A DNA stretch of 64,000 nucleotides from Botryllus schlosseri. Taxonomy: Eukaryota. The translations under genes and the position numbers were made by a program. Each line of letters starts with the position of its first letter. The stretch's first letter is position 1. A model generated the notes under the pieces. The model made no database searches and had not been told where the DNA came from. It worked only from the letters and a program-made list of their open reading frames with translations. The DNA is taken from positions 8,868,001 to 8,932,000 of the forward strand of contig CM119371.1 in the NCBI GenBank assembly GCA_051294905.1, in the 5' to 3' direction. Positions 12,941 to 47,611 of this stretch are shown piece after piece.

Positions 12941-13122
12941 CATTTAATTTCCTGAAATTCGTGTTATTTACTATTTTTTATTCTTATCCTAAAAGATCTC
13001 CGTATGCTCTCTTCATCAGTTCCATATAGTACCATCATGCAGTATGCACCGTAGTAAATGCCGTCATTCTTATCAGATCATGTCGGTCAATGATTGACAT
13101 AATCACATACCCCATTTAAATT
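12941..13122 (-). repeat. LTR-like terminal direct repeat, 3' copy (segment A 12941-13091 followed by segment B)
   Basis: 12941-13091 matches 48630-48780 with 3 mismatches; contains AATAAA on the minus (coding) strand; lies ~240 bp beyond the env2 stop. Confidence 0.8.
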
Positions 13123-13357: not shown

Positions 13358-16300
13358 CTATGATACCATAACGCGTCCGCCCAATAGATTATCAGTTTCT
13401 TGTTCTACGACCTCCTTCTCTTGTAACACAGGTCTGGTATGCAACTTTCGCATGCTAATTCCGTGGTGGATGTTTCTATTGACAATTTTCCGCCTTGTAC
13501 TTGATTCTAACTTATTTCTTCTGCGATAATACTTCTTGCTAATGTATATCAAGGCTGCCACGGAAAAAAATAAGATAATGACGACCATCATTAATCTTTT
13601 ACTTTGGCCTTTTATTGGCCCTTGAATATTCCGTACATGAATGCCAGTCATTATGAAAGGTACTAGTTTTACCGAGTAGTTTTCTTCCATCTTTAATAAT
13701 TCATGTAGTTTTTCTGTTAAATTGAGCCTTATCAAAGTGTCTGTGGCATTCTTCGAATCGTACCCCCATATCTCAAGCGTGGAGACAGGGGCTTTAGCAG
13801 TTATCATTTGTGAATCGTTCCCTCCAAGAGTTGGGGGTAGACTTTTAATTGTATTCGGAATGCGAAGGGCCTTAGGGGTTTGTACCATGACCTCCTCTAT
13901 ACGGGAATCATTGAACCGTGTAATTACACGTGTCGTTGAAGGGTCGTCGATATTTTCACTGGACTCATTTATGGTGGTTTTGGTTCTATTGACCAACGGA
14001 TTCGGTTCCCTCGGTTCCGTCATATGCAATTCTCCACTCCTTCCGGCTTCTGGCAATGCTCTGGACATCGATGTACTTCCAGTGCCTTGCAAACCCCGAA
14101 TCACTTTCATCATTAGTATTGTGGCAGCGATACTTGGCGGTGTAGTTCCTGTTCTTTCGGTAGTAATCTCCGTCCCAGAAGAGGTCGTGCCATTTGGTAA
14201 AATTATCTTCGTCCCAATAGCAGCCGTGGTATTCGAGTGCATAGGTTTTATAATCATAACGGTCGGGTTACTCTCCTCCGTTGTACCCAAGGTCGGCCGA
14301 GTACTTAGAATTGTGGTTTCATAATCGTGGTCCCGAGATCGTGATGGATTCCTTATTACTTCAATTCTGTCTTCCAATGTCGAATTTGAGGTGTTTCTGG
14401 AGTAATAACTCAACATGGCTTGTAGAGGTACCTTTAGCGTGGAGGATATAACTGTTTCCGTTCCACTATTTATTAGGGATTCATCGCTATGTGATAATTC
14501 AGATTGGTTCTGTAGAGGGTGGCTTCTAATTGAATCCTTAGTTGTCGTAGAATTTGGGGTGGTCATAATTGTCGTAGAATTTGGGGTGGTCAGAATTGTC
14601 GTAGCGAATTCTGCATAGCTGGACATAGGACGTGTTGTTTGTTCCACCATTACCGTTTTCTCTCCTGAAGGGGTATTCTGGATCATCCTCCTGAGTTTTA
14701 AATTAGGTCTATTTGAAATTGTACTAATGTTCGCTGCATTCCCATACAGAGCGGGTCGTGTTGTTATAACTTCGGACCTCCATACGTCGGGAACAGGGAT
14801 CATGCTCCTTGAATCACTGTATTGTATGGGTTGTGTTGTTCTCACTCTTGAGGGAATAGTAGTACTATTATTCGTTATATTCCAGGGTTCTGTTGTTACC
14901 AAGAATAAATTGTTCCTTGATGACATCGAAAACTTTCCCTCCCCGTCTTTTTTCGAAAGGGTAGCAGTAACTGTTGTATAAGGAACGCCAGTCGATTTTT
15001 CCACAGAAGTGAGTATTGTCATGTTCGTCAAACGGGTTGTATGCGATGTGTTGTTATGATCTACCGGTCCTTCAGTAGGGGGAGAGGTGGGTTTGTTAGT
15101 AAATGGGTCCGGGTTTGTAGCAGAAATGTCCCCAGGCAGGGTGGGCGTCACATTAAAAAGGCGAACAGTAGTGTTAGACATGGACAATGTCCTATCCTTT
15201 CTGGTATCCACTTCAAACACGTTGGGTTGATAATCGGTCGTTATTCTAGCCTTTTCCGGAGGTGGTGAGGTTTGGATTATTTTACCAAGTGCCTCCGTTA
15301 TAGTTGTGTTGATGACGGTCAAATGCTCGTCCGTTGATGACCACAGAGGATTCGCCCTGCTCGTTTCATTTCCCACCACCAAAATCGTACTGGCGTGATC
15401 TGAAAAATTGCTAACACCTTGTTTAGTAAGTCTTCCCCTAATTATTGTCATAAGAGGAGGAGCTTGTGTGCTTTCCGACACATTTCCCGCCGTCGAGGCT
15501 GGGACTTCTATAGTGGTCAACACGTTATTGGGAGCTGCTGTAGTCGTGTTCACCAAACGTAAGCGAGGCCTTTTTTTGTAGGCGTATGGTGTGTAAATAA
15601 GGCTTCCATTCAGAAAGTATGCCTTGTAACACACGTCCGGAGCGAATAGGTTAGTTTGTCGGGATTTTGCTTCCAATAAACTCTGGGCAGTGGCCATTTG
15701 GCTGAACGCTCTGTTCAGCCTTACAGCGTCAGATCCTGAAATACCCTTCTGCTGTCGGTTAATTTTGTTGAGAATCATATTTTTTGCCCTTCTTGGTATT
15801 ATTTCGCGGCTCATAACCATCTTTAACCGAGACCTTATAATAGCTATTGGTCTGGTTAAATTTCTGATTATGTCGACAGCTCGTTTGCGGGCTTGTAGCC
15901 AATTCTGACGAAACCACCCTTCAAGACTTTGTCCATTCGCACCTGACATCGTGAGAAGGAATGCCTGTTCTCTTTTTCTTGCTAATCCAGGAATATGCGT
16001 AAGCGTAGTTCCGACAAATTCTCCTCCGTAGGTGTTGACAAAAATGGGATGATTCAATGATGGATCATACGTCACTAGATTCCCCATAATGAGTTTGGCA
16101 GCCACCCCGCTGAAAGGATTGGTGCACTCTGTTCGGTTTGCGACACGGCCCTGACAGTTCGGATCTAAAGCAGTCATCGACGGGGAGGTTATTTTTATAG
16201 GCATACTCCCTTTCTGACGTCTCTTCGGTCCATCCCGTAATCTGTTGTTGGCATAATATCCGCCCTCCAATGAAATGTTAGCACTCGCCTTAACCCAAAA

Positions 16301-17221
16301 TATTCGATTTGACATCACCTTATCGAAAACTCCTGTGGGCCATAAGTTTTCAGACGCTGCCAGTTGTTCACCATTGTTTATGGGGTTGTCCGTGTTTTCT
16401 CTCGTAGTAAATGTGTCAATAGTAATATCTTCTTCCTGAACAATAAGTCCAAAATCTACAATACCAATCACTGGGTTTTCACCAGTAAATCGACAAGTAT
16501 AACACGTCGGAGATTCTCCTTGAGTAGTTGAGCAGGCATGGAAGTTTCGCATTGTAATGATTAGTCTAAAAGAGACTGGATTCCAATCCCTCGTGCAGTC
16601 AGCTATTACCCCGCGATAGTCTTTGAGCAAACTTATCACGAGAAATTTATAAACAGTCATGATAGGTGTGTACTTATTCCCAGGATTTCCGCGAGGGAGG
16701 GTGAATTGGTTTTCAGCCCATTGCCAAACGAAGCGTGCATCATACTGTTCCGACCGATGGAATCGAATTCGCCTCCCCAGGTAGGAATAATTCAAGGGTG
16801 GTTTTATGTAGAGAATTCTCCTAAGACACGAACAAGTCTGTTCTAACTTCAAAGGATCATCCCAGTATTGACCCTGTGATCCCCTCGGGAGAAGGTTATT
16901 CCGCATTGTTTGTCCAATAGTTTGTATCTTGCCAAACTGGGCATCATATCCGACAATTTCTCCATCAGATTTATAGCGATGTATTTGTTCGGGGTTCGTG
17001 TTAGCCAATGTTATTTCTAAATTGAATAACTCTTGAAGTAGTGCCCTCGAGCTGTTAAACAAGCTCTCGTCATAACGGGTCCATGTCGAAGTGTTCAAGC
17101 TTTCAATAGGTAATATCTTCATGTCAATAAAAGGGACTCGGCCAGTAACATGAGAACGTCCTGACCACGCGGCCGACAGTAAAAGGACCATAACAACGAT
17201 GATGTGATCCAACTTCTTCAT
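13358..17221 (-). CDS. Envelope-like type I glycoprotein 2 (1287 aa): Env1-paralogous N-terminal domain, long S/T/N-rich mucin-like stalk, TM and basic tail
   Basis: Signal peptide MKKLDHIIVVMVLLLSAAWSG; Cys and motif colinearity with the 785-aa ORF; many N-x-S/T sites; TM LMMVVIILFFSVAALIYI followed by KKYYRRR. Confidence 0.8.
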   Translation of the reverse strand: MKKLDHIIVVMVLLLSAAWSGRSHVTGRVPFIDMKILPIESLNTSTWTRYDESLFNSSRALLQELFNLEITLANTNPEQIHRYKSDGEIVGYDAQFGKIQTIGQTMRNNLLPRGSQGQYWDDPLKLEQTCSCLRRILYIKPPLNYSYLGRRIRFHRSEQYDARFVWQWAENQFTLPRGNPGNKYTPIMTVYKFLVISLLKDYRGVIADCTRDWNPVSFRLIITMRNFHACSTTQGESPTCYTCRFTGENPVIGIVDFGLIVQEEDITIDTFTTRENTDNPINNGEQLAASENLWPTGVFDKVMSNRIFWVKASANISLEGGYYANNRLRDGPKRRQKGSMPIKITSPSMTALDPNCQGRVANRTECTNPFSGVAAKLIMGNLVTYDPSLNHPIFVNTYGGEFVGTTLTHIPGLARKREQAFLLTMSGANGQSLEGWFRQNWLQARKRAVDIIRNLTRPIAIIRSRLKMVMSREIIPRRAKNMILNKINRQQKGISGSDAVRLNRAFSQMATAQSLLEAKSRQTNLFAPDVCYKAYFLNGSLIYTPYAYKKRPRLRLVNTTTAAPNNVLTTIEVPASTAGNVSESTQAPPLMTIIRGRLTKQGVSNFSDHASTILVVGNETSRANPLWSSTDEHLTVINTTITEALGKIIQTSPPPEKARITTDYQPNVFEVDTRKDRTLSMSNTTVRLFNVTPTLPGDISATNPDPFTNKPTSPPTEGPVDHNNTSHTTRLTNMTILTSVEKSTGVPYTTVTATLSKKDGEGKFSMSSRNNLFLVTTEPWNITNNSTTIPSRVRTTQPIQYSDSRSMIPVPDVWRSEVITTRPALYGNAANISTISNRPNLKLRRMIQNTPSGEKTVMVEQTTRPMSSYAEFATTILTTPNSTTIMTTPNSTTTKDSIRSHPLQNQSELSHSDESLINSGTETVISSTLKVPLQAMLSYYSRNTSNSTLEDRIEVIRNPSRSRDHDYETTILSTRPTLGTTEESNPTVMIIKPMHSNTTAAIGTKIILPNGTTSSGTEITTERTGTTPPSIAATILMMKVIRGLQGTGSTSMSRALPEAGRSGELHMTEPREPNPLVNRTKTTINESSENIDDPSTTRVITRFNDSRIEEVMVQTPKALRIPNTIKSLPPTLGGNDSQMITAKAPVSTLEIWGYDSKNATDTLIRLNLTEKLHELLKMEENYSVKLVPFIMTGIHVRNIQGPIKGQSKRLMMVVIILFFSVAALIYISKKYYRRRNKLESSTRRKIVNRNIHHGISMRKLHTRPVLQEKEVVEQETDNLLGGRVMVS

Positions 17222-17343: not shown

Positions 17344-19701
17344 CTATCGCCGAATAGTCAGGGGTGCCATATAAGCCGTATATGTCGTCAACTCATTTCG
17401 GTTATTTCGACCTTGTATCTTATCATGTGTTCTCCTTTTGTTAGGGAAGACGACCGGGTAGAGTTTAATCATACAAATAAGTATTCCGATCACAACCACT
17501 ACAATTATAATCGGTGTGAGTATTCCCGTTAGACTCCCAAATATCGCACCCAAGCCAGAACCAAATAACCCGCTCACTCCGTCAATACCCTGGGAGAGTA
17601 TTTCCCCAGCTCCTTCCGCTACGCTCCGAATAATCGTTCCTGTGCCATTAGCGACGGTCTTAACGGCATCCCCGAAGTCATCAAAGAATTCTTCCCCTAT
17701 TACGCGATTCAAGTGGATAAAACTGATATTATCATACTCCATATTTGAAGTATTTACAAACACGCCGCTGTCCACATCTTCTTGCCAGCGTTGCAATTCA
17801 ATTTCAGCTTGGTAGTCGATGCTCTGTATTTCTCTTCGCGTGTTTTGTAATTCCAACGCCTGATTTTCGGAAACATTTGCATAGTCGCCTTTCAGCTCAA
17901 TCATTTTCTCCGCAATTTCGCGTAGGCTTAAAATCCCTGACTTAATTCGTACAGCGTACGCCTTGTTTCTATCAAATATAGGTTTCGCTGTTAGATTTTG
18001 TAACTCCTGCATAACCAATTGATTAATGCTCAACTCAGCCAATGTCATTTCTTGTACGGTTTGGATCGTGGATAGATAACTATCCACTTGTGCTAATATC
18101 ATGTTTCGATTGGTCCATATCATACTGGTGATAGTTTGGAGCCTTGCCTCGGTAGCTGCTTCCCTTCGCAGATTTGTCAGGATCAACTCGTTCAATTTCT
18201 GAGCCCGGGCAACCCCTATAAGGGAAAGATCGTTTAATCCGTCAGCTACCGTCTTCAAATCATTTTCTATTTGTGTAAATCGGGCGTTCAGTTGCGCAGT
18301 TAAGTCGTCCATATTTTTGTTGATCATGTGCTGTAGATTTGAAGTTACGGCCAGAGTTAAAATTGTCGAGAATGCTAATACGAATAATGAGAAAAACATT
18401 CTTTTTCGCCTTCCCGTCCCTCCTGGAAGTGTAGAATTCCCGTCCTCTAAACCTGTTTTGTGACCTCCCAGTACCACGAGAGGTTTTCCGGGGTATCTTC
18501 TTCGATTGGCCTGGGAATCGTAGATAATGTCGTCCCAATAGGACAGTTTCATGTGCAAGTCCCCAACAGGATATTCACAGGTTGCTTTATTTTCCCGTAT
18601 TCGTCTCACACACCGCTGATCGTCCTTCAATAACGAAGGGTATTGGCGGTATATCGGTAATATTCCCGAAATCTTGATAGGCTTCCTTCCATCCATATAA
18701 TCTAAGCCGTATTTATTCGGATAAGTGGGTCGAATCCAAATTATATTTTCCGGTAAAGTTGGTTTGTCACCCAATATAGCATTTCTCCACACAGGTGCTG
18801 ACGGGTGGTAATTGTGTACTCCAGGCACATATTCCATTTCAATGTCTAGCGACGTCTTTAAATTTCTAGTTGGGTCCTCTTCCTGTATAAGAATTTTGCT
18901 AGGATGGGGTTGATAAGCCACAACCAAACCGCGAAAAGTACAGGTCGTACATCGTAATATCTGGAGTAGACGAACACAATCCACCAGATCTGTAGAACTA
19001 TCGTTGTAGATATTTCTTTGTAACATCATTGCCTCGGTCCTTACCGTATAGGTGACACAATTTATTCTAATACTAGAATATGTGGCAAACATTTTCAACG
19101 CTTTTAATTTATACTTCATAATGGCTATCTGGAATAGGCCGCGAGGATTCCAGCCTCTAATCGTTTCGTCCGTATCGTTCCACCTCCATACCAACCGGTA
19201 ATTATTTCCAGTAGGTCTCACATATACATTTTCCGATTCCAGAGCTTTCAAGTTCAGATCAGGCGTAATATATGCCTTTGTTCGTCGACACAAGCAAGTC
19301 TTTTCGAACGCATTTATATCTTCCCAATAATGCCCAGTCGGATACATGTATTCTTGAAACGTGATCTTCTCGGCCTTCACATAACCAAACGTGGATGAGA
19401 AAAACAATCCAGGGTTACTAAAGTTATAAGTTGAATTCCTTATGTCCCAGCACGACGCTAGAGAAATGTGTTCCCAAGGCGATGATTTCAATTCGGTCCA
19501 ATCTGCGGGAAATTTCTTAGGCAGCCTTCCAAACTGAGCCTGGACTATCGTTCCAGCTCTGTCGTCATAGTATGGTATTGTGCTTGCGGTGGTAGTTATA
19601 TTACTTGCAGATATTGTCGATCCCGTCGTCCTCGGCAATAGCACACTAAGTGTATGAAGCAAGCCACACAAGTAATAATTAATAGTAGAAACGCTGACCA
19701 T
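17344..19701 (-). CDS. env: Envelope fusion glycoprotein-like protein 1 (785 aa)
   Basis: Signal peptide; furin site RRKR (18400-18411) immediately followed by hydrophobic MFFSLFVLAFSTILTLAV; heptad-repeat region; Gly-rich amphipathic membrane-proximal segment; TM IIIVVVVIGILICMI; Kozak context GCACCATGG. Confidence 0.85.
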   Translation of the reverse strand: MVSVSTINYYLCGLLHTLSVLLPRTTGSTISASNITTTASTIPYYDDRAGTIVQAQFGRLPKKFPADWTELKSSPWEHISLASCWDIRNSTYNFSNPGLFFSSTFGYVKAEKITFQEYMYPTGHYWEDINAFEKTCLCRRTKAYITPDLNLKALESENVYVRPTGNNYRLVWRWNDTDETIRGWNPRGLFQIAIMKYKLKALKMFATYSSIRINCVTYTVRTEAMMLQRNIYNDSSTDLVDCVRLLQILRCTTCTFRGLVVAYQPHPSKILIQEEDPTRNLKTSLDIEMEYVPGVHNYHPSAPVWRNAILGDKPTLPENIIWIRPTYPNKYGLDYMDGRKPIKISGILPIYRQYPSLLKDDQRCVRRIRENKATCEYPVGDLHMKLSYWDDIIYDSQANRRRYPGKPLVVLGGHKTGLEDGNSTLPGGTGRRKRMFFSLFVLAFSTILTLAVTSNLQHMINKNMDDLTAQLNARFTQIENDLKTVADGLNDLSLIGVARAQKLNELILTNLRREAATEARLQTITSMIWTNRNMILAQVDSYLSTIQTVQEMTLAELSINQLVMQELQNLTAKPIFDRNKAYAVRIKSGILSLREIAEKMIELKGDYANVSENQALELQNTRREIQSIDYQAEIELQRWQEDVDSGVFVNTSNMEYDNISFIHLNRVIGEEFFDDFGDAVKTVANGTGTIIRSVAEGAGEILSQGIDGVSGLFGSGLGAIFGSLTGILTPIIIVVVVIGILICMIKLYPVVFPNKRRTHDKIQGRNNRNELTTYTAYMAPLTIRR

Positions 19702-20862: not shown

Positions 20863-20906
20863 GTCTCTTTCTTGTAACTTAAGATAACACTGTGAAATTT
20901 TACTGA

Positions 20907-23900
20907 TTATTGTTTTTTGTCCGCAAACTGTATTACTGCGGAAGGGATGGGTCCTCTACACAAAATTACATCTGGGTTGGGTGACTGCCACATAATCATA
21001 CCCAATTCCCTGATTTTGCTGGCGTCAATTTGTAAAGCCACCTTTCGTCCCCGAGATTTCCCACTTCGGGTTAGGCTAAAGTGAATGTATTTCCGGGGCA
21101 TTCTTTCAAGCTCAGTCTGCATAATCCGTTGAGCGCCATTCCGCGTAGTCATGTGGTACAGCTTGTCGTTACCAGTATATTCCTCATAAGCGGGAGGCTC
21201 ACCCACGGTATGTCCGTGTGCAGCCGCGAGCCCCTCATCTTGAAGAACAGCCCTGGAATTGTTTTGCATGATTGACCTTAGGAAGTGACTTTGGAACTCT
21301 TTCCCCAGTTTTCTCCTTAGGATTTCTTGCAGATGTCCCCAGGGATGAAATCCACCATGGCTGTGGTCACATACCTCGTGCCTACAGTGCCGCATTAAAA
21401 GTCTCTGTATGAATTCATGTCTGGCAGAGTCCAATTCGTTTGGTGCGTCCGCACTCTTCGTCGTAGGTAAAGTGGTCCATACACAAGGGTCGTCTTCCCC
21501 TGCGGCCATTTCCATCCAATAAGAACGAGAAAGCCCATCGGATGTGAATACCTGTAGCGTACTTAAATGAATCACTTTATCTATTTGGAATCCTGATAGA
21601 TGGTTGAGCCATCGCTGGATTAGTGGTTTTGGGCTCGGATTCGCAGCTTTTTCTGTCATCCTTTTCAATAGTCCGAATACCCCTGTATTGTCTGTGATAA
21701 TGGTAAATGGTATTGCGCGCAACATAGATTGCCATTTTTCCACCGAATCTTTTAGAGCTTTGAGCTCTTTTGTACACGGATCATATGCCTTTGCCGTTTG
21801 GGTAGTCCATTTTTGGCTATAAAAAGCAATCGGGTATATCTTCGTAAAGGGCGGTTTTTCTCCTTCTTCTGTCTGAAATATTACGGAACCGAATCCTACA
21901 TCAGAAGCATCGGTTTCGATATACAGCGGGAGTTCTGGGTCCAGATGATATAGTACCCTTGCGTCGTCCAGTAAGGCTTGGGCCACCTTATAATCATGCA
22001 ACAACTCATCGTTCCATAGTAAGGGCGTTACTCTTCCTTGTGTGGCCGGTACTTTCCCCGTTAACGCGTCGAACTTTGCTAGCTTCAGGCTCAATTCAGG
22101 TATGTGTTCTGAGATGTATCTCAATGCCCCGATCCAACCCCGTAGCTCATAAATGTTATGAGGTGGCGCAAGTTCTTTCAGGGCTCTAACTCGTTCGGGT
22201 TGGACCTCAATTTCTTTGCCTGTTAAGGTTGCGCCCAGCAGATTCACTCGCCGCTTGCCAATGAAACACTTATTGATGCTCACTGTCAATTTCATCTTAG
22301 CCAATTGTTCAAACACCATTCTGAGCAGCACCAGGTGATCCTCAATGGTCTTTGTGCTCAGGAAGATGTCATCAATGTAGGCCTCCATAGGCGTCACAGT
22401 GGACTCATCAGTCCTCCCACATTCTCGCATGAAGCGTTGATAATTCTCAGTGATGGGTTTAACCACACATTCCTGCATATTTGAAGTCCAAAGGGCTACT
22501 GCGGTCCGAAGACCCATTGGCATCTTTCGCCAGCGTATATGCCTGCCCTTTACGGCAATGCCTACGTATTGTTTTGATCTTTCCGTCATTTCCATGTGAA
22601 AATAGGCCTTCTTCAAATCCAATAGGGATAGTACCTCACGACCTTGAGCAAGCTGCTTCACGTCAGGTACTAATGGAGGGGGTACCTCTATGGATTTGAT
22701 GGCTGCATTAAGGGGTTGGAGATTCTGTACAACCCTCCATGCCTGTTTCCACCCGCCTTCTTGCTTCTGTCTTTCGTTCATTTTTTGAGGTACTACAAAT
22801 ATGGCCAGTTTCCATTCAGCAAATCCTTGTTCAATGACTTCGAGATCTAAAAAATTATCCACAGCCTCTTTTAAGGCTTTTGCCTGTTCTTCGCCCTTTA
22901 GATTATAAGGCCCTGACACAAAAGGTTTGGTTGAAGGGTCCTTCAATTCGATGTCACATTTGTATTTCATGGCTTGTGGGGCTTTGAGGTGTCCTCGTAG
23001 ATCTTCAAGTTCCGTAGCGTAAGGTTGATATACCTTCCTCCATTCTGCCTCAGGTACGATAGTGTTATCTGGGCTGGTAAGATCCGGTGGCTTATAGGGT
23101 GATTTCGCCAGTTCTACAGCTTGTTTACACAATCTTTCTAATTCGTCTCTAACGTCTGTCTTGGTCCCTTTACACAGTTCATACGTAGTTATCGGACCGC
23201 GAATTGGCCTGGTTGGGCCTTGACGTATTTCCGGTACCGATGGAGAGGGGGCGAGGTCTCCTTTGGTCAGTGGGGCTTCCACACTCGACTTGTTCTGCCT
23301 CTGAAATAGGCGCGTGCCCGCACCTATTTTCACGCCGACGACTCCCTTTTCCCTTGTCGCCGGGGGCCCTTTTTCTGGTAGGGTTTGCATATTTCCTCCA
23401 GACTCTTCGTCATCCACCCTGTTCTCTTTCCCAGAGGAGATGGCGACAGCTGCATTTGAAATAGTTTTCTCGGTTGGTGGCACGACGAATGCGACCATCG
23501 GGTCGTGGACAATATGTCGGCCGTTTTTATCAGGATCCTTCCATACGCCCGTGTCCTGATTATTGCTAGCGGGAATTCTTCGCTCAGCATGATTGGATTT
23601 GGGGGGGACACTACCCCCCATATTGAGATTAGCGTGACCGGACGTCCTCCCTTGTGCGCTAAATCTCTCCGAGAAAGAGGGATTGCCGAAATCCCGAATA
23701 ACGTCAGCGGGGCTTCCACACTCGACGTTGTAGAATGTCGCAGCTTCCATCGCTCCGTCACCAGAAGCAACGTTGCAAGTGCTACTTCTGTTTCCGGTTC
23801 CTTCATCGCCAATTAACGCGGCAAACGTCAATTCATTATTAACTGCAGTAGGGTCTTTAAATTCCATTTCTATAGATGGAAGTTGCTGAACTTGGTCAAT

Positions 23901-24323
23901 CCACTTCAACCCTATAATATTTAATGGTACTCTATCACCAGTCGCAAATGGAACTGGTAAGCCATCTATCATGATTATTATCAGGTAATCAACACAGGAC
24001 AATCCACCTATGCCGCGCAATTTCATTTCGAAAGGTTGCCTTTTGGCCCAACTAAGGGGGTATTTATCCTTGGCTACCTCCTTCAAAATCAGATTTGGGA
24101 CACTTCCCGTGTCGGCTAAGAATTTAGTTCCTGTTTTTTTGTCCATTAGGTACAATAAACGACCACCGAACAATTCAGTAAAGTCAGCCTGTGGCGTATT
24201 GTCCGGTATGTCGAGAAAAGTAAATAGGGGTAAAGAAGAATTATGTACAGTTTTAACGTGGTAAGGTAACACTGATTCGGGCAACTGATTTACCGGATCC
24301 ATCAGTGCCCCCAGTCGTTTTTT
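20907..24323 (-). CDS. pol: Pol polyprotein (aspartic protease, spacer, RT, RNase H, Tpt1/KptA-like domain); probably made as Gag-Pol by -1 frameshift; no integrase
   Basis: LADTGS protease (24105-24113); RT motifs WRVVQNLQPLN, LDLKKAYFHM, MPMGL, YIDD (22368-22379), LLG; Ty3/gypsy-type RNase H ETDASDVG..PIAFYS..KELKAL..IITDN. The ORF-track start at 24362 is TTG. Confidence 0.92.
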   Translation of the reverse strand, partial: KKRLGALMDPVNQLPESVLPYHVKTVHNSSLPLFTFLDIPDNTPQADFTELFGGRLLYLMDKKTGTKFLADTGSVPNLILKEVAKDKYPLSWAKRQPFEMKLRGIGGLSCVDYLIIIMIDGLPVPFATGDRVPLNIIGLKWIDQVQQLPSIEMEFKDPTAVNNELTFAALIGDEGTGNRSSTCNVASGDGAMEAATFYNVECGSPADVIRDFGNPSFSERFSAQGRTSGHANLNMGGSVPPKSNHAERRIPASNNQDTGVWKDPDKNGRHIVHDPMVAFVVPPTEKTISNAAVAISSGKENRVDDEESGGNMQTLPEKGPPATREKGVVGVKIGAGTRLFQRQNKSSVEAPLTKGDLAPSPSVPEIRQGPTRPIRGPITTYELCKGTKTDVRDELERLCKQAVELAKSPYKPPDLTSPDNTIVPEAEWRKVYQPYATELEDLRGHLKAPQAMKYKCDIELKDPSTKPFVSGPYNLKGEEQAKALKEAVDNFLDLEVIEQGFAEWKLAIFVVPQKMNERQKQEGGWKQAWRVVQNLQPLNAAIKSIEVPPPLVPDVKQLAQGREVLSLLDLKKAYFHMEMTERSKQYVGIAVKGRHIRWRKMPMGLRTAVALWTSNMQECVVKPITENYQRFMRECGRTDESTVTPMEAYIDDIFLSTKTIEDHLVLLRMVFEQLAKMKLTVSINKCFIGKRRVNLLGATLTGKEIEVQPERVRALKELAPPHNIYELRGWIGALRYISEHIPELSLKLAKFDALTGKVPATQGRVTPLLWNDELLHDYKVAQALLDDARVLYHLDPELPLYIETDASDVGFGSVIFQTEEGEKPPFTKIYPIAFYSQKWTTQTAKAYDPCTKELKALKDSVEKWQSMLRAIPFTIITDNTGVFGLLKRMTEKAANPSPKPLIQRWLNHLSGFQIDKVIHLSTLQVFTSDGLSRSYWMEMAAGEDDPCVWTTLPTTKSADAPNELDSARHEFIQRLLMRHCRHEVCDHSHGGFHPWGHLQEILRRKLGKEFQSHFLRSIMQNNSRAVLQDEGLAAAHGHTVGEPPAYEEYTGNDKLYHMTTRNGAQRIMQTELERMPRKYIHFSLTRSGKSRGRKVALQIDASKIRELGMIMWQSPNPDVILCRGPIPSAVIQFADKKQ
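20910..21425 (-). other. Tpt1/KptA RNA 2'-phosphotransferase-like domain at Pol C-terminus
   Basis: Colinear family motifs: CRH (LRH), GGF (dGw), IMQNNSR, AAHGHT (RAnqGHS), LYHMT (lyHGT), ERMPRKYIHFS (kpmkRqhVHLS), ALQIDA, QSPNPDVILC..PIP. Confidence 0.8.
24262..24323 (-). promoter_or_regulatory. -1 programmed ribosomal frameshift signal (A AAA AAC plus stem-loop/pseudoknot)
   Basis: In the gag frame GCA AAA AAC (24317-24323); pol is in the -1 frame; downstream GGGCACTGAT pairs with ATCAGTTGCCC, and loop GGTAA could pair with a later TTACC. Confidence 0.8.
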
Positions 24324-27295
24324 GCTAATCTCAACCCCTGGTCCAATTCCTCGTCGGTCCAATATGGATTAATACGGGATTGTGGGGGATAATATGGCTG
24401 GGTCCATGCTACCGTATCGGCATTGTGAGTGGGTCCCCGTGGTCCCCATTGATCTCTATCGCGCCAATGGGTCCTGTCTCTATTCTTAGGTCTTTCGTTA
24501 TAATACGTGTCACACAGGGCTGTTCTCTCAACAAATGAAGGGGACCCTTGTGAGGCTAAGTATCGATCCAAATCAGGTATCGAGAGTAGTCGATTTTCAG
24601 TTAGAAAAGGACGCCAATTCCTTTCTACAAATTCCTTTATGCGAGGTGGTACAGGTCGTCGTCGCTTTTGGATTACCCATCCCTCGGTATCGTCTTTAGT
24701 TAGGACCTCCTCATTCAGCCATAATATGAATTTGGCTACGCAATTTCGAGATTGGTGCCCTGGTGCCTTGCAATAATAACATACAGACAATGTTTGCCCC
24801 TCTGACGGGTTCAAATATAAGCCTAGAGGTGCAAAAATATTGGGGTTACCAAGGAAATTATACCTCTCACCTTGACTGTTGGAAATCTGGCTCGCCTCGT
24901 GGCTACTCGATGGAGTTGCTTGAGAATAGTCCCTTCCGAAGCCCGAATCCTGCGTCTGCGAAAATCGCGGTTGTCCTCGGTTTAATGTTCTCCTTTCCTG
25001 GTTCGGTCGCGAGGTCGGAGAGTTCTGAGAGTAGTGACCGTTACCTCTATCTCCCGCTGGACGTCTCTGCGAAGGCGAGATCCCCTGTGGTCTATTCGCT
25101 ACCCCACCCTTCGAAGTGGGTCTTTCCCGACTGGGATTTCCGTGGGCTATTACCGTCGTGGGGAATCGGTTCGTCTTTGCGGCCCTGCCTGGGTTTATCC
25201 TTGTCACAGGCTGGTACGTTGTCCGGGCGCGTCTTCCGACGTCCATAGGTTGTCGACTCTGAGGTGACACGTTGTTGAGCATAGATTGTGAAGAGGGAGA
25301 GGGCGAGTTGATAATGGGGGGCGTGGGGGTACGTATCGGCTGGGAATTGTCTATTCTCCCATTTCCAGTGGGCTGGGTTGGGTAGCTAGGCATCATGTGT
25401 CCGGCAGGTTGTACATTGTAAATATGTACGGGTGGCAGAGAAGGAGCACTTACAGCGTGTGCCTTTTTGTTGGGAGCCCTCGTCTCGCTAGGGAACCTCC
25501 CTTCTTCCTGATCGTCTAGGAACTCGGAATTCCAGAACATCTGTAACTCCTCAGCCACTTGTTGCCACGTCCCCTCTTCCCAACCGCGGATCATCATTCT
25601 CAACGCCTGAGGCAGTTGACGTCGTAGATGTCTGAACAAACGCAGCCCGTCGGGGTTTTTCTTAATGTAGCTTCCCATATTTATTTCGAGTTGCTTCAGC
25701 ACACTATTCAACAACGGCAGTGGTTCTTCATTCCAGGAGTAATTACTCCGAAATTCGTTAATGATCTTTTCGTTATTCACTAAACCTTGAGGGTTGGAAA
25801 GGTTGAGGGACCTCATAACGGAAAACCAACTCGGTTTGCCCGAGTTGGTGTTGAAAAAGTTTCCCAACTGTCTGGCCTGCTTTATACGTCCTGCCTGTCT
25901 CAGCTTTTTCTGCATGGCGTTTGATAAGATTATATCTTCGTTCGTATCCCCCTCTCCATGATCGATGCGAGCCATCGTATTAGCCATCCATTTAACAAGG
26001 GGCATGTCGTCCGGGTCCATCATGAGTTGCATCATTTCCTTTTCGGTTTGTAATCTGATAGGCCGTTCCCCAGCGTGGAACTCACGTGCTTGACTCGGGG
26101 TCCCCAATTCCCCTGGTGGATTGCAAGTATAACCTTGTTGCTGTTCTACAATTCCTTCCTCACTGTAATCAGGAGTGGACTCAAACCGTGGGGAACCAGC
26201 GGTGAATCGAGACGGGAAGTAAATCTGCCTAAAATTGCTAGGATCGCGGAGAGCGTCTTGTGGTTTGTGGCCATTATTGTTAAGGATAGAAGTCTTGGTT
26301 TCCCTATCTTCTAGGGGACCTCTTCCAATCCTTTCAAAAGTAACGTGCCTGGTTTCGTCTGGCTCGCTCCTCGCTCGTCTTTTGACGGAGATTTTATCGC
26401 TTGTTCGTTGACCGTCCTGTCCACGTTGGTCGTCCTGCCTACCCCGGTCTCCTCCTATTCGTACCAATCCGGCCGCCCCATGATACTGTTTCGTGGAGTC
26501 GTGTTCATGTTGATCTTCCACGCTCGGTCTAGGACGGATCGGCGTGTACATGTCAGTGGAGGGACGTCCTGATGATACGGTCGGAGGGCCGTCCGGCCCA
26601 AATTTATCCAAGGATTTCGAGCGTCTCATCCCTTTGGCACTAAGCAGTCCCTGACCGGGACTGGCTGCCAGTCTAAGAGCGGGACTGGCTGGTTGTAGGT
26701 TTCCGGTTTTTTGAATCGGTTGTTGCTGGGGTGATTTGTGTGTTGGACCTTCCGACTGAGTCTGGGGGGAGGCCGTATATACAGCTGTAATTGTATGGCA
26801 ATCAAGTCCTTTGCTCACATGAAATTTGGGCCTAAGGACGGCTCCCCCCCATGACGGGTTTGTTGGGTGGTGATATGCTGGTGGGGGTGAAGTGGGTATT
26901 ACTGTTAGCGCGTTAGATGGTCGAGAGGTCTCCCCGATTACCGACGCATGTTCCTTTCCGAGGTCGAATTCAGCCTTCAAAACTTCGTTTAGTACATCTG
27001 TGGAAACTTTACCACTGACCTTGGTGGTAGCGTCACATACTGCTTTCAAATCAGCCTTAGCCTGTTTTACCTCTTTCTTTATTTTGTCCAATTCTTTCAT
27101 AGTACCCGGCAGGACTGTTTTGACTTCCTTCAGCAGTTTGGTTTGGTCTGCGACACTTTGAGTGAGTCTTTTTTCCTGATCCTTTACATTTTCATGGCGT
27201 AATTGTGTGGCTCTGAACAGCTGAATTCCTTGTTCTAATTCCGCAGCTGTCTCCGTTGATCTTTTCTTTTTGAACAACTTCACCATTTTTTCCAT
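24302..27295 (-). CDS. gag: Gag-like polyprotein (997 aa)
   Basis: N-terminal coiled coil, PPAY motif, central helical domain, CCHC knuckle CYYCKAPGHQSRNC (24740-24781), position directly upstream of and overlapping pol. Confidence 0.85.
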   Translation of the reverse strand: MEKMVKLFKKKRSTETAAELEQGIQLFRATQLRHENVKDQEKRLTQSVADQTKLLKEVKTVLPGTMKELDKIKKEVKQAKADLKAVCDATTKVSGKVSTDVLNEVLKAEFDLGKEHASVIGETSRPSNALTVIPTSPPPAYHHPTNPSWGGAVLRPKFHVSKGLDCHTITAVYTASPQTQSEGPTHKSPQQQPIQKTGNLQPASPALRLAASPGQGLLSAKGMRRSKSLDKFGPDGPPTVSSGRPSTDMYTPIRPRPSVEDQHEHDSTKQYHGAAGLVRIGGDRGRQDDQRGQDGQRTSDKISVKRRARSEPDETRHVTFERIGRGPLEDRETKTSILNNNGHKPQDALRDPSNFRQIYFPSRFTAGSPRFESTPDYSEEGIVEQQQGYTCNPPGELGTPSQAREFHAGERPIRLQTEKEMMQLMMDPDDMPLVKWMANTMARIDHGEGDTNEDIILSNAMQKKLRQAGRIKQARQLGNFFNTNSGKPSWFSVMRSLNLSNPQGLVNNEKIINEFRSNYSWNEEPLPLLNSVLKQLEINMGSYIKKNPDGLRLFRHLRRQLPQALRMMIRGWEEGTWQQVAEELQMFWNSEFLDDQEEGRFPSETRAPNKKAHAVSAPSLPPVHIYNVQPAGHMMPSYPTQPTGNGRIDNSQPIRTPTPPIINSPSPSSQSMLNNVSPQSRQPMDVGRRARTTYQPVTRINPGRAAKTNRFPTTVIAHGNPSRERPTSKGGVANRPQGISPSQRRPAGDRGNGHYSQNSPTSRPNQERRTLNRGQPRFSQTQDSGFGRDYSQATPSSSHEASQISNSQGERYNFLGNPNIFAPLGLYLNPSEGQTLSVCYYCKAPGHQSRNCVAKFILWLNEEVLTKDDTEGWVIQKRRRPVPPRIKEFVERNWRPFLTENRLLSIPDLDRYLASQGSPSFVERTALCDTYYNERPKNRDRTHWRDRDQWGPRGPTHNADTVAWTQPYYPPQSRINPYWTDEELDQGLRLAKNDWGH

Positions 27296-27301
27296 AATTA
27301 T

Positions 27302-27532: not shown

Positions 27533-28443
27533 CAGATCGTCCAACCTCAAAACTAATTTTGTTATATCTTCGGGGAGAATGTGTTTATCACCTTAAGTGT
27601 CTTTTCAACGCTGTTAGGTATCCCAGTGGTGCCTCCAATAGTTTTAAGTGAAGCTCCACGGCGATTGCACGTGCGAGTATGTCTCCACTTGGTTCGGTAT
27701 CCTTCCAGTGTTGAAATTGCACTTGTATGGTTCTTCACACCCTATTCCGCGCTTATGGTTGATTGAAGTAAATGCAATGACCGTTTGATTGAACAATTCA
27801 TCAATCTTTTACCGGTCCAGCGGCCAGATCTTGGTCTATACTATAAGATAAATCTTAATACAACCTTAATACAACCAAATACTCCAATCTTAATCACGTT
27901 CAATACTCGGAAAAGGACTATAGCGAATATAAATCAACACATGACTTAGGCTATCAATCCATCGTTCAAGTACATCACGCAATTATATAATGATCTTCAC
28001 ACCAATTCTCAATATTATTTCGCAAATCCTACAGTGAATGGGTCTTGCCTAAAGTGTTGGGTTTATTATACTGTTAACACAGGTTTTTGTTATTCCATCC
28101 TTGTTTTTCGTGGTCATTCACTGGTAGTTTTATTTAGTTTATGACGTCATAGCATTTCCAGGGCAAGCAATTCCCGTTCCTACGATAATCACACTATAGG
28201 GGCATGTGATTTTCAATCCACCTAGGCACAACTCATTCACTGCTATTCATCCCCATTAGAGGAATTGTAAAAGGACTGAATCCACATATAATACGATATT
28301 GTCTTAGACCTAAGTAAATGTAATCATGTACGCACCAGAAATAATTAAAGACACAAGTATTTACACACAAATTTAGTTACGCTTTGTAATATACACAGTC
28401 GCCATTAACAATTGCCCCCTGGTGTATTTCATTTTAGCGGACT

Positions 28444-28989
28444 TCATTGGTATCCTGGGTCCGCATAATCCAAACTGTATTGGTTAATTCTCTGTCGTCG
28501 GTTCTTAAGAGTATCAAATACTTTTGAGATATTTTGTCGTGTTTGGCGCCTCCCGGAAGTAACCAATATCTCTGTTGGCGCCCCTCTTTGTGATTCTTCG
28601 GTAATGGTACTTTTCAGGTATTGCCTTACCCTTCCCAGCTTTTGTTCCGCATCTCCCTCGGTGGACTTATGTATTGTTCTGCATCCTTTTATGATCTTCA
28701 ATACCTTCAGGGATCGCTCACGGACTTTGTCCGGATTCTGTTGTTCTCTTGTCTCTGCAGGTTCAGCAGATATAAAAAATCTATGTAGTATATCATTGAG
28801 GGCCTTCAGGGTAGGCTTTTCTATGTTACTCATCAACCCAATCAGGATGTCGAACTCCTCGATGGTTGCAATTAGTGCTGTATTTACACTGTAGCTTCTA
28901 GAATGAGAGATCTCAATTCTCTTGATGTTTCGGCAATGAGGCATGTTCCCAATCGTCCAATTCTTCTTAATACACCTTAGGGTGTACAA
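28444..28989 (-). CDS. Hypothetical helical/basic protein (181 aa; first ATG 28944)
   Basis: Uninterrupted ORF, same strand as the cluster; no recognisable motif. Confidence 0.5.
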   Translation of the reverse strand: MYTLRCIKKNWTIGNMPHCRNIKRIEISHSRSYSVNTALIATIEEFDILIGLMSNIEKPTLKALNDILHRFFISAEPAETREQQNPDKVRERSLKVLKIIKGCRTIHKSTEGDAEQKLGRVRQYLKSTITEESQRGAPTEILVTSGRRQTRQNISKVFDTLKNRRQRINQYSLDYADPGYQ

Positions 28990-30023: not shown

Positions 30024-30959
30024 CTATTGACACTTGAAACGAGGGTCATTCGCCACGATCTGCAAGAACTTCGGAAATCTCTTTTGGTGGGGGCACCGGC
30101 GTCTCCACAACCACTCGTGAATGTAACTAGGAAGAAGTGCTCTAAAGACACCGTGTAATCTTCGAATAGAGTGTTTGAAAAAATTCCAGGATGCCTCTAT
30201 ATTTTGAGTATGAACTCCCGTTTCTCTGTTAATATACTCTAATTTATGATTAACGGTAAAGTGTTTGTACCCCATACCCCACTCCTCGATCCTTCGATAG
30301 CTTGCAAATGAGTCAGTCCAGATGGTTGACCCTCTTCTTACGTACTTCGTTATTAGTCGTCGTAGTACTGGTGCTGTTCTCCCCTCAATAGGCACTAGTT
30401 CAGCAAACATTTCTTTAGATTCCATGTCGATTCCGGCGAGAATGTACCGATTTTTCTTTACATTTCTGCCCATCTTGTTCCCTGGTTTCCTTTTGCATAC
30501 GTACGCCTCGTCAATTTGAATTATTCTATTTGGACCACCCACTCTGTTATCTTTGCTTAGAATGTCCTGAGAACATACGCTTCTTAATATTTTAGCCCAA
30601 GGCACCATCGTTCGTTTGGTAACTTCCGCTTCAGCGGCCACACGATGCTGGGGCAGATCTATGGCCCAGAAGTATGTTAATATTAGAAGTCGAATGAGTC
30701 CCACACGACTTTTGGAGAATATAGACCCGGCTCTGATGGATTGGCTAGTCCAGCAGATCGGGCAACGCCATCGGCATCCATCTGTCGTTGTGGTGGTTTC
30801 TTCCTGATACATTGGGCAAGCACAGCTGTAACAAGTAGCATGCTTTGCAAGAAGAGAATGGTTTCTTAAAAATTTGATGCATTGGGCAGTGTTTGTGATA
30901 GCCCCCATCTTCGCCAGTCGAAATATACTATACTTATTTTTTTCGCTTCGCGGTCGCAT
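30024..30959 (-). CDS. IS1595/ISXO2-like (Merlin-type) DDE transposase, copy 2 (311 aa)
   Basis: DGCRWRCPIC, SIRAGSIFS, QIDEAY, STIWTDSFASY, VNH..GVHTQNIEASW, YIHEWLWRR; shares YFWA and C-terminal DPRF with copy 1. Confidence 0.9.
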   Translation of the reverse strand: MRPRSEKNKYSIFRLAKMGAITNTAQCIKFLRNHSLLAKHATCYSCACPMYQEETTTTTDGCRWRCPICWTSQSIRAGSIFSKSRVGLIRLLILTYFWAIDLPQHRVAAEAEVTKRTMVPWAKILRSVCSQDILSKDNRVGGPNRIIQIDEAYVCKRKPGNKMGRNVKKNRYILAGIDMESKEMFAELVPIEGRTAPVLRRLITKYVRRGSTIWTDSFASYRRIEEWGMGYKHFTVNHKLEYINRETGVHTQNIEASWNFFKHSIRRLHGVFRALLPSYIHEWLWRRRCPHQKRFPKFLQIVANDPRFKCQ

Positions 30960-31147
30960 TCTTTCTCGTTTATCGAATCTCCCAAGTGTTGGTAAAAAGG
31001 CCTTTCGTTGTCTGGTTCGATAACGTTTCTTCAGTGTTATGTTGTTGTCTTGCGTTAATAAAGGTCTTCGTATGATTCACCAATATAATAAATATCGTTA
31101 TAACATATGTAGCGACACCCTTTTATGCTGAAAGTTATAATTTAATT

Positions 31148-31660
31148 TCAGTCATTCTGGCCTTGTGAATCTCTGAAGGTCGTGAAGTCGCGCTCAGCCT
31201 CCTCAAGAGGTATGCCTCGGGACTTAGCATGGGCGAATATTTGCATGAGTGGGTGAACGACCCATTTCAGAAAAGAATTTTTTCGATCAGTACTTTCCTC
31301 CAAAACCGCTTTCCACACATCGCTGTGTCTCATTAAACCTTCGATGTATTCGCGAGCAATTGTCAGAAAAGCCATTCTAAAGGGCAGTTCTTGATGGAGA
31401 ATACCCGTAAAACATTTTTCAAAATCACTTTCCTCCAGGTCTTTGCCCGCCCAATCCTCATGAAGGACCTCTAAATTGTTTTTAGCTTTCCAGTAACATA
31501 TTCGGGGATCAGTATCGTGCCCTATTATCTCATCCAAGTGATCCACCAGATCATCTGAGGTCAATAGGTACCGCAGTGCTTTAAGTCCTTGATCAATAAA
31601 ATCATCTGGGGATAGAGGTGCCCATTCTCCATAGTCCTGATCTTCCGGTAATTGCACCAT
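31148..31660 (-). CDS. Unknown-function protein, paralog A (170 aa)
   Basis: Full-length alignable with 38024-38542 (F.DQGLK.L, PR..YWK, DW.GK.L, TG.LH.E.P...AF, WV..P...I.AHA). Confidence 0.75.
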   Translation of the reverse strand: MVQLPEDQDYGEWAPLSPDDFIDQGLKALRYLLTSDDLVDHLDEIIGHDTDPRICYWKAKNNLEVLHEDWAGKDLEESDFEKCFTGILHQELPFRMAFLTIAREYIEGLMRHSDVWKAVLEESTDRKNSFLKWVVHPLMQIFAHAKSRGIPLEEAERDFTTFRDSQGQND

Positions 31661-38023: not shown

Positions 38024-38542
38024 CTAATACGGTACTTTCAAAGCCATATATTGGCAATCTGCTTCCTTTAGTGATAACGAATGAGTTTCCGCATGCGCAT
38101 AAATAACCGATTCTGGGTAAATAACCCAAAGTATGAGATCACGCTCAGTTTTTTTGTCCCTCAATCTTTCCTCCCACTGAGGGAGCGCTATTTTCAAGGA
38201 CTTCACCCAGCAGATGCAGATCTCCGCAAATGCCAGTTTAAGGGGGGTCTCGGGATGGAGAGATCCCGTATAGATATCTTCCCATTCGTTTTCATCAAGA
38301 TGTTTGCCAGTCCAGTCACTATCGTCGCCATGATCGCAGGAGCAGAAGCCATGTCGTTTTTTCCAGTAGCGCATTCGCGGATTAGAGTGATCATCGAGTA
38401 TATCACAAATATATTCTGATAGCGAGGTTGTGGTCATAAGAAATTTCAAGGATTTCAGCCCTTGATCGAGAAATTCCTCTTCTCGGGGTTTTTCAACGAG
38501 GTGTTCGGTTTCAGGTTCTTCGCAACGCAATCCCAAGCACAT
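38024..38542 (-). CDS. Unknown-function protein, paralog B (172 aa)
   Basis: Full-length similarity to 31148-31660; ATG start; intact. Confidence 0.75.
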   Translation of the reverse strand: MCLGLRCEEPETEHLVEKPREEEFLDQGLKSLKFLMTTTSLSEYICDILDDHSNPRMRYWKKRHGFCSCDHGDDSDWTGKHLDENEWEDIYTGSLHPETPLKLAFAEICICWVKSLKIALPQWEERLRDKKTERDLILWVIYPESVIYAHAETHSLSLKEADCQYMALKVPY

Positions 38543-47527: not shown

Positions 47528-47611
47528 GTCACCTAATTCGTATTCCTTTCTCTTCTATAAACCCATCCGGGTCACCTTATTCGTATTCCTTTCTCTTCTA
47601 TAAACCCATCC
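47528..47611. repeat. Two-copy ~43-bp tandem repeat
   Basis: GTCACCT(A/T)ATTCGTATTCCTTTCTCTTCTATAAACCCATCC twice. Confidence 0.8.

What the first reader, a model, noticed from the sequence alone, without database searches (positions are those of the whole stretch)
30024..30959. Second, diverged ISXO2 paralog upstream of gag
Seen: another intact ISXO2 gene sharing idiosyncratic features with copy 1 (C..F.R...LL, YFWA.D.PQ, EEWG..YKH, terminal DPRF), again with no visible TIRs and co-oriented. Inference: an old duplication within the element lineage with both copies kept, possibly for division of labour (integration vs excision/circularisation, or a heteromeric transposase).
Basis: partly seen in the sequence, partly recalled or inferred. 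Interest (0 to 1): 0.7.

Follow-up and report, generated by a model that had tools for sequence, protein, structure and literature searches.

The report
Second transposase in retrovirus-like giant element
A retrovirus-like mobile element in an invertebrate genome carries two intact, anciently diverged copies of a cut-and-paste transposase where one is the rule; the second is real and closely related to the first, but whether it has its own job or is a passenger is still open.

Summary
Confirmed. 30024-30959 (-) encodes an intact 311-aa ISXO2/Merlin transposase (PF12762, E 4e-19; D150/D216/E255; model pLDDT 95). It is 41% identical to copy 1 (19858-20862, in the integrase position behind pol), with saturated silent sites. 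No Merlin-type TIR+TSD brackets it. Trees put both copies in one small Merlin sub-lineage (16 rows, 99/95). Grouping copy 2 with generic Merlins is rejected (p 3e-8), and so is a recent duplication (p 2e-5): each copy has closer relatives elsewhere (52%; 56-89%). So this is an old paralog, either duplicated early or captured from a sister element. It lies in an upstream arm with other paralogous ORFs, separated from gag by a genomic copy of the host spliced leader. A copy1-copy2 dimer model passes (0.74 vs 0.00), but close paralogs usually do. Not shown: element ends, a second copy of this arrangement, expression, division of labour. Earlier notes of this scan describe the same kind of gag-pol-Merlin-env giant element on other DNA of this genome; their summaries mention one transposase.

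The parts
30024..30959 (-). Copy 2: ISXO2/Merlin DDE transposase, 311 aa; C43/C46/C66/C69, D150/D216/E255; short basic N-terminus
   Evidence: the start aligns with the start of P0001
19858..20862 (-). Copy 1: ISXO2/Merlin transposase, 334 aa, in the integrase position; its frame opens at 20955 and overlaps the pol end
31128..31147 (-). Candidate splice acceptor (AG ending at 31128), 20 nt after the orf170 stop and 168 nt before the copy 2 ATG; one short upstream ATG lies between
   Evidence: rank 8 of 1204 AG sites by an ad hoc score; 8% of random 200-nt windows score as high, so this is weak
31148..31660 (-). orf170: unknown protein directly upstream of copy 2; 31% paralog of orf172; 59% homologue P0155
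   Evidence: no Pfam or Atlas hit
38024..38542 (-). orf172: paralog of orf170; no ISXO2 remnant behind it
28444..28944 (-). orf166: unknown ORF between copy 2 and gag
   Evidence: no Pfam family at E 0.001
27854..27888 (-). Genomic copy of the host 24-nt spliced leader (27888-27865) plus an 11-nt repeat of its tail (27864-27854), 570 nt before the gag ATG
   Evidence: 7103, 13399 and 482 RNA reads with one adapter-like loose end behind 27889 and mixed sequence before about 27858
24302..27295 (-). gag-like ORF, 997 aa, with a weak CCHC knuckle hit
   Evidence: E 9e-4, below the curated cut-off
20907..24302 (-). pol: RT, RNase H, then a Tpt1/KptA-like domain; no retroviral integrase hit; the protease is read from a DTG motif only
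17344..19701 (-). env-like ORF 1 (785 aa from ATG); label inferred from hydrophobic ends and earlier notes, no Pfam hit
13358..17221 (-). env-like ORF 2 (1287 aa from ATG); 23% paralog of ORF 1 over 353 aa; followed by an A-rich tract at 13306-13343
45595..46701 (-). Unknown 368-aa ORF in the distal arm, with a candidate acceptor 4 nt before its ATG
   Evidence: no Pfam hit; Atlas hits all under 0.8
12921..12939 (+). Candidate left end of the whole element (imperfect inverted match to 47515-47533); no target duplication
   Evidence: 13 matches of this strength in the same scan, so unproven
47515..47533 (-). Candidate right end (starts GG); would give a 34.6-kb unit
   Evidence: unproven
12941..13122 (.). 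About 172-nt unit repeated directly, in permuted order, at 48594-48792 (96% and 93%)

Best explanation
Copy 2 is a resident, selectively maintained paralog of the element's integrase-position transposase. It sits in the variable upstream arm of a roughly 35-kb gag-pol-Merlin-env element. SHOWN: intact DDE enzyme with an integrase-type fold; same small Merlin sub-lineage as copy 1; old split; no ends of its own; co-oriented and contiguous with gag, with no window-shared repeat between them. INFERRED: it came by an ancient duplication or by recombination with a sister giant element of the same lineage. It is made from its own mRNA (orf170 and copy 2 read as a small operon resolved by host leader trans-splicing) and dimerises through its N-terminal helix. 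It cuts and joins Merlin-type element ends as a second, dispensable source of transposase, able in principle to mix with copy 1, rather than as an obligatory subunit.
For: Catalytic triad and four cysteines conserved. Model pLDDT 95.4, pTM 0.90, nearest solved folds retroviral integrases. 41% protein identity with 13 of 45 fourfold sites identical and no stop or frameshift. Clade of 16 rows 99/95, inner 11 rows 83/83; the same sets appear among 142 rows. AU tests: placement with generic Merlins rejected (p 2.8e-8), exclusive sisterhood rejected (p 2e-5), one clade of both lineages not rejected (p 0.38). No TIR+TSD. No self-hit to window repeats from 14001 to 32000. Contig depth 44-46, as for gag (46.5), with one contig over 27863-33469 and 0 differences (the tool warns that depth is no copy number). 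GC3 0.44, like the other ORFs (0.42-0.48). The element holds two more paralog pairs, env/env and orf170/orf172. For dispensability: copy 1 has an 89% relative (P0009), yet two searches with copy 2 found nothing above 53%.
Against: The element's ends are not established: the candidate TIR pair has no TSD and is no stronger than chance matches. Highly repeated host elements fill much of 33.4-37.7 kb, so the arm's continuity beyond 33.4 kb is uncertain. No second copy of the gag-copy 2 arrangement was seen at 88% or more. Contexts of P0001 and P0006-P0009 are unknown, so the sub-lineage may include free TIR Merlins. Host Merlin families were not in the tree, and the comparison set was chosen by similarity to copy 2. 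Inner branches are unstarred. No RNA reads lie on 30372-31705 in three bulk runs (6-13% of each read), though gag, pol and copy 1 are equally blank. The acceptor signal is weak. Base composition does not separate the element from the host hAT gene (GC3 0.41).
Confidence: 0.5

Rival explanations
1. Independent insertion or neighbour: copy 2 (perhaps with orf170 and orf166) is the transposase of a separate Merlin of the same sub-lineage. It landed upstream of gag and its ends lie outside the scanned span or are too imperfect to see.
For: Copy 2's nearest relative is P0001, not copy 1 (100/97). It is single-copy in run X1. Merlin TIRs can be highly imperfect (PMC8101967, passages). The TIR scan has no Merlin positive control (0 of 19 loci). 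Summaries of earlier notes on sister elements name one transposase (unchecked).
Against: No TIR+TSD out to 47 kb. An intact gene with eroded ends is unlikely without selection. Landing beside a gene of the same 16-row clade, out of 7731 relatives at E 0.001 or better, needs a coincidence. The upstream neighbour orf170 has a paralog further along the same strand. None of the 15 joints shown (of 655) removes copy 2 in DNA.
Confidence: 0.2
2. Shell plus cassette: an outer Merlin DNA transposon (copy 2 as its own transposase, plus the accessory ORFs) took up a leader-headed, A-tailed 14.6-kb retro cassette (gag-pol-copy 1-env-env). Copy 2 moves the whole 35-kb unit as DNA; copy 1 serves the reverse-transcribed cassette.
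For: An exact host spliced leader sits 570 nt before gag, between the cassette and copy 2. An A-rich tract follows the last env-like ORF. The two flanks share a gapped match (3.8% of random pairs score as high).
Against: The flank match is weak and post hoc. Earlier notes describe leader-headed LINEs/SINEs that insert at leader-like sites in this genome (unchecked), so the leader copy may be a small insertion scar. Those notes also place TIRs and 8-bp TSDs around units with one transposase. A chance shell would not need to be from copy 1's clade.
Confidence: 0.15
3. Obligatory two-transposase system: copy 1 and copy 2 form a heteromer, or split excision/circularisation from integration, and are inherited and selected together.
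For: Complex model of copy 1 (residues 26-334) with copy 2: score 0.74, best of 3 controls 0.00. That mark was reached by 51 of 78 solved complexes and 2 of 108 mismatched pairs (eukaryotes: 39 of 65 and 2 of 126). Runs agree in at least 91% of contacts, partner pLDDT at least 81. No solved IS1595/Merlin structure was found by sequence, so recall of a template is unlikely. Four-way site count: copy1=copy2 or P0007=P0001 at 27 sites against 13 for the crossed pairs (p 0.038), as if paralogs co-evolve within elements.
Against: The interface is symmetric (N-terminal helix on helices 88-112 of the partner), i.e. a family homodimer surface. Close cousins passed 10 of 12 in the tool's calibration. 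Only 7 of 22 interface residues are identical. The four-way test is post hoc, its strict form gives 6 vs 2 (p 0.29), and nothing shows that P0001 and P0007 share an element. Both copies keep a full DDE triad, so neither looks like a non-catalytic subunit. The 89% relative of copy 1 has no matching copy 2 relative.
Confidence: 0.15

Closest known systems
Merlin superfamily / IS1595 family (IS1016, ISXO2-like) DDE transposons (PMC8101967, passages read)
   Same: PF12762 domain, DDE triad, about 300-330 aa, intron-less ORF
   Different: No GG-starting TIRs or 8/9-bp TSD around the gene; the family has a single transposase gene per element; here two 41%-identical genes lie either side of gag-pol
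Teratorn (piggyBac fused to an alloherpesvirus; PMC10175614, passages read)
   Same: A virus-like gene set joined to a DNA-transposon transposase; the proposed intermediate has two transposon copies around the viral genes
   Different: Here the cargo is reverse-transcribing (gag, RT, RNase H) and the enzyme is Merlin-type; the two genes are deeply diverged and carry no TIRs of their own
Troyka / Kuafuorterviruses (PMC12440569 parts 1-3 of 5; PMC11673190 parts 1-2 of 3)
   Same: gag with CCHC knuckle, RT and RNase H, in aquatic animals including ascidians
   Different: They have LTRs, a retroviral-type integrase in Pol, no envelope and are 5-8 kb; none of that fits
Bacterial composite transposons (two IS copies around cargo; outline in PMC6431247 passages, details recalled)
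   Same: Two co-oriented transposase genes around a cargo block
   Different: The flanking IS copies are near-identical and keep their own ends; here nucleotide identity is 50% and the env-like genes lie outside the pair

Membership tests
Merlin/IS1595 transposase (protein) | DDE_Tnp_IS1595 domain with intact DDE triad | tested here: met
   PF12762 69.6 bits vs cut-off 27; D150, D216, E255 invariant among 11 closest rows and at least 90% conserved among 111
Merlin/IS1595 transposase (protein) | RNase H-like integrase/transposase fold | tested here: met
   Model pLDDT 95.4; best Foldseek matches are retroviral integrases, E about 4e-6, TM 0.30-0.37
Merlin transposon (copy 2 as its own element) | TIRs of 24-462 bp starting with GG | tested here: not met
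   Only 11 short chance-level arm pairs (11-12 of 14), none with a TSD; no Merlin positive control
Merlin transposon (copy 2 as its own element) | 8- or 9-bp target-site duplication | tested here: not met
Merlin-ended giant element (whole unit) | TIRs and 8-bp TSD around the whole gag-pol-env unit including copy 2 | tested here: inconclusive
   Candidate arms 12921 / 47533 match 15 of 18 with no TSD; no genome or sister copy available
IS1595 family / Merlin | Single transposase gene per element | tested here: not met
   Two genes, if both belong to one unit
Merlin/IS1595 transposase (protein) | Excision and strand-transfer activity on cognate ends | not testable with these tools
   needs an assay
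Troyka/Kuafuorterviruses and Metaviridae | Retroviral-type integrase within Pol | tested here: not met
   Pol ends in a Tpt1-like domain; no integrase hit
Troyka/Kuafuorterviruses and Metaviridae | Two LTRs with short TSD | tested here: inconclusive
   Only a permuted 172-nt direct repeat 35.7 kb apart; RT phylogeny not tested
Composite transposon / Teratorn-type intermediate | Two near-identical, end-bearing transposon copies as boundaries | tested here: not met
   50% nucleotide identity, no ends around either copy

The most novel reading that the evidence does not exclude
A reverse-transcribing, envelope-bearing element that has replaced integrase with two co-evolving Merlin transposases. 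One sits in the leader-headed gag-pol-env unit and integrates the cDNA; the other is made from the upstream arm and excises or moves the 35-kb DNA form, or the two act as a heteromeric transpososome with one subunit per end. This would be a two-mode (copy-paste and cut-paste) element with a paralog pair in charge of the switch.
Probability: 0.15. Interest if true: 0.85.

Novelty: new variant of a known kind. Interest (0 to 1): 0.52.

Why it matters
Merlin/IS1595 elements are described with one transposase. I found no paper on a retroelement that uses a Merlin transposase, nor on two intact Merlin paralogs in one element (searches; open-access library only). Copy 2 shows that the element's transposase sub-lineage is old and diverse, and it gives a natural pair for asking how a cut-and-paste enzyme was fitted to a retrovirus-like life cycle. 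If it is only a passenger, it still records how these giant elements grow by duplication or exchange. Most of the surprise lies in the host element, which this scan had already noted elsewhere in the genome.

Tried and rejected
Own-genome search: no genome is held, so copy counts, host Merlins and empty sites could not be read. Viral contigs: no relative with copy 2 or with a 3-sequence alignment. Metagenome contigs: 19 loci, best segments 27-53%, 1-6.5 kb; none matches the eight other element ORFs tested. Longer fused forms: none among 4527 candidates, weak evidence. Eleven long hits carry no RT domain. Cluster look-up of 10 relatives gave no names or accessions. Rfam: no match in 12500-49200. 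No RNA holder was listed for 24300-32000. The RNA 'joint' 27889-32229 in X7 and X9 would skip copy 2; rejected as a read-end artefact, because the side is 21 letters, an adapter-like end follows 27889 and poly-G follows 32249. Recent duplication and recent gene conversion rejected: AU p 2e-5; 45-nt windows reach at most 64% identity and the longest shared word is 14 nt. A third, decayed ISXO2 behind orf172: none. Splice acceptors before every ORF: not significant as a set with my ad hoc score. The leader's sequence was not found printed in two papers searched; that it is the ascidian 24-nt leader is recalled, while its leader role here rests. Troyka/Kuafu identity rejected. Sequence look-ups in earlier findings with either copy returned nothing.

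Full report
OBSERVATION. The minus strand at 30024-30959 holds an ATG-started ORF of 311 aa, inside a stop-free frame of 350 codons. The longest frame in 200 shuffles of 27300-33500 was 151 codons. It matches PF12762 (ISXO2-like transposase) at E 4e-19; the first copy at 19858-20862 matches at E 1.9e-13. The two proteins are 41% identical over 302 residues. Their genes are 50% identical over 888 aligned bases, with 13 of 45 fourfold sites the same, so silent sites are saturated while both frames are intact. A profile search of all six frames finds no third copy.

PROTEIN. D150, D216 and E255 are invariant among the 11 closest sequences and at least 90% conserved among 111. Four N-terminal cysteines are kept. 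The AlphaFold2 model has pLDDT 95.4 and pTM 0.90, and its best Foldseek matches are retroviral integrases (E about 4e-6, TM 0.30-0.37). A profile of the sub-lineage finds no solved relative by sequence (one unrelated hit, E 0.35). The start codon lines up with that of the nearest relative, P0001.

SURROUNDINGS. The window is eukaryotic (NACHT, hAT and RT genes); an ascidian-type host is suggested by earlier notes and by the leader below, and was not determined here. On the minus strand the order is: a 368-aa ORF (46701), orf172 (38542), orf170 (31660), copy 2, orf166, gag (CCHC, weak), pol (RT, RNase H, Tpt1-like; no integrase), copy 1, and two env-like ORFs (the env label is inferred). There are three paralog pairs: the transposases (41%), orf170/orf172 (31%) and the env-like ORFs (23%). 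orf170 has a 59% homologue, P0155. No window-shared repeat falls between 14001 and 32000, whereas highly repeated host elements fill much of 33.4-37.7 kb.

ENDS. No GG-started inverted pair with an 8/9-bp duplication brackets copy 2, within 27300-33450 or with the right arm out to 47 kb. The generic scan does recover six TIR+8-bp-TSD elements in the window, but the Merlin-specific scan found ends in 0 of 19 short metagenome loci and so lacks a positive control. For the whole unit, arms at 12921 and 47533 match at 15 of 18 and would give 34.6 kb, near the 35-38 kb in earlier notes (unchecked). They have no TSD, and the same scan gave 13 matches of that strength. A 172-nt unit is repeated directly, in permuted order, at 12941-13122 and 48594-48792; it is unexplained.

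TREE. phmmer with copy 2 found 7731 relatives at E 0.001 or better, of which the best 150 were returned. FastTree on 142 rows (140 of 152 proteins; 12 left out for length) puts both copies in an 11-row group (92) inside a 16-row group (100). IQ-TREE on 34 rows gives 99/95 for the 16 and 83/83 for the 11; copy 2 pairs with P0001 (52%; 100/97) and copy 1 with P0009 (89%) and P0007 (56%; 100/100). AU tests on 20 rows (quick, LG+G4) reject exclusive sisterhood (p 2e-5) and reject placing copy 2 with generic Merlins (p 2.8e-8). They do not reject one clade of both lineages (p 0.38). So the tree shows a shared small sub-lineage and an old split; it cannot tell duplication in place from capture out of a sister element.

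READS. In DNA run X1, which may be the window's source, copy 2 has depth 44-46 like gag (46.5), and one contig covers 27863-33469 (except a skipped repeat) without differences. No other copy at 88% or more was laid on it, while parts of pol drew partial matches (depth 220-890). The tool warns that depth is no copy number. None of the 15 joints shown (of 655) removes copy 2 in DNA. Three bulk RNA runs (6-13% of each read) have no reads on 30372-31705, and next to none on gag, pol or copy 1; those animals may lack this insertion.

LEADER. The same lay shows 7103, 13399 and 482 RNA reads with one adapter-like end behind 27889 and mixed sequence before about 27858. So 27888-27865 is a copy of the 5' leader shared by many host mRNAs, followed by an 11-nt repeat of its tail. 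It lies 570 nt before gag and separates the gag-to-env cassette, which ends in an A-rich tract, from the arm that holds copy 2. The leader's 9-nt tail recurs at 28974, just before orf166 (3 occurrences on the minus strand of the window). Earlier notes describe leader-headed LINEs and SINEs in this genome (unchecked), so a small insertion scar is as likely as a functional 5' end. A candidate acceptor 20 nt after the orf170 stop could give copy 2 its own mRNA (rank 8 of 1204, about p 0.08, ad hoc score).

HETEROMER. The complex model of copy 1 (residues 26-334) with copy 2 scored 0.74 against a best control of 0.00. That mark was reached by 51 of 78 solved complexes and 2 of 108 mismatched pairs (eukaryotes 39 of 65 and 2 of 126); runs agree in at least 91% of contacts, and partner pLDDT is at least 81. 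The interface is symmetric, and close cousins passed 10 of 12 times in calibration, so the result shows a shared dimer surface, not a preferred heterodimer. Seven of 22 interface residues are identical. A post hoc four-way count (27 vs 13, p 0.038; strict form 6 vs 2, p 0.29) hints that copy 1 and copy 2 resemble each other more than the tree predicts, as do P0007 and P0001. Against an obligatory pair: both triads are intact, and copy 1's 89% relative has no counterpart for copy 2, although fragmentary contigs could hide one.

MECHANISM AND ODDS. Most likely (0.5): an old, selected, dispensable second transposase in the variable arm of the giant element, acting on shared ends. Rivals: separate Merlin with unseen ends (0.2); outer Merlin shell plus leader-headed retro cassette (0.15); obligatory heteromer or division of labour (0.15). 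Activity, expression and ends are inferred, not shown.

LITERATURE. PMC8101967 (passages) gives the Merlin features: GG-starting TIRs of 24-462 bp, 8/9-bp TSDs, a single transposase gene in the IS1595 family, and some very imperfect TIRs. PMC10175614 and PMC6431247 (passages) describe Teratorn and giant or composite elements. PMC12440569 (parts 1-3 of 5) and PMC11673190 (parts 1-2 of 3) describe Troyka/Kuafuorterviruses, which keep LTRs and integrase. PMC3074122 and PMC3691228 (passages) mention ascidian leader trans-splicing but did not print the 24-nt sequence. No supplements were read; Repbase-type tables there could list similar elements. Seven searches (listings only, except for the papers named) found no description of a Merlin-bearing retroelement or of two Merlin genes in one element; the library lacks most subscription papers.

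VERDICT. Observation confirmed; interpretation partly supported. The second gene is a real, old paralog from the same Merlin sub-lineage and probably part of the element, but a distinct role is unproven. New variant of a known kind; interest 0.52.

Noticed in passing
window 27854-27888 (-): Exact genomic copy of the host spliced leader plus an 11-nt tail repeat, followed by GT, 570 nt before gag; could be a cDNA head, a cis splice donor or an insertion scar.
   Followed up: partly
window 28966-28976 (-): Leader-tail-like word 22 nt before the orf166 ATG; possibly a second leader relic.
   Followed up: partly
window 12941-13122 and 48594-48792: A 172-nt unit repeated directly in permuted order (96%) near both candidate ends; the second lies 1 kb outside the candidate right TIR. 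Could be terminal redundancy, a subterminal repeat or a piece of another copy.
   Followed up: partly
window 20907-20955 (-): Copy 1's frame overlaps the pol end by 48 nt in the -1 frame across a run of six A; a Pol-transposase frameshift fusion is possible. The top-scoring acceptor-like site of the region is at 20796, inside copy 1's first codons.
   Followed up: no
window 24302 (-): The gag stop and pol start overlap (TGATG), as in termination-reinitiation; the pol frame opens 66 nt earlier.
   Followed up: no
window 24324-27228: One high-depth contig (441) joins these places with 11 letters between, skipping most of gag; side only 24 letters. It may mark a multi-copy gag-deleted derivative.
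   Followed up: no
window 37776-38424: The orf172 region has contig depth 83 with 5 differences, about twice the depth over gag and copy 2: a second allele or copy may keep orf172 but lack the gag-copy 2 part.
   Followed up: no
window 31148-31660, 38024-38542: orf170/orf172/P0155 form a small acidic protein family without Pfam or Atlas match.
   Followed up: partly
window 33445-35685, 33845-35088, 38963-39330, 2573-6244, 6951-8472: TIR elements with 8-bp TSDs, one nested in another; probably hAT-type MITEs.
   Followed up: no
window 49020-52168: Intact hAT element with 8-bp TSD and a 639-codon frame, just beyond the candidate right end.
   Followed up: no
window 2760-4869: Foldback element with 634-nt arms, 97% complementary.
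   Followed up: no
window 61357-62925 (+); 52928-53815 (-): Host NACHT/NOD2-WH exon (522 codons) and an RT fragment.
   Followed up: no
P0004, P0005, P0013, P0015, P0018, P0026, P0031, P0095: Long proteins (900-1750 aa) with two to five ISXO2 domain matches each in one chain: multi-domain Merlin derivatives exist in public data.
   Followed up: no
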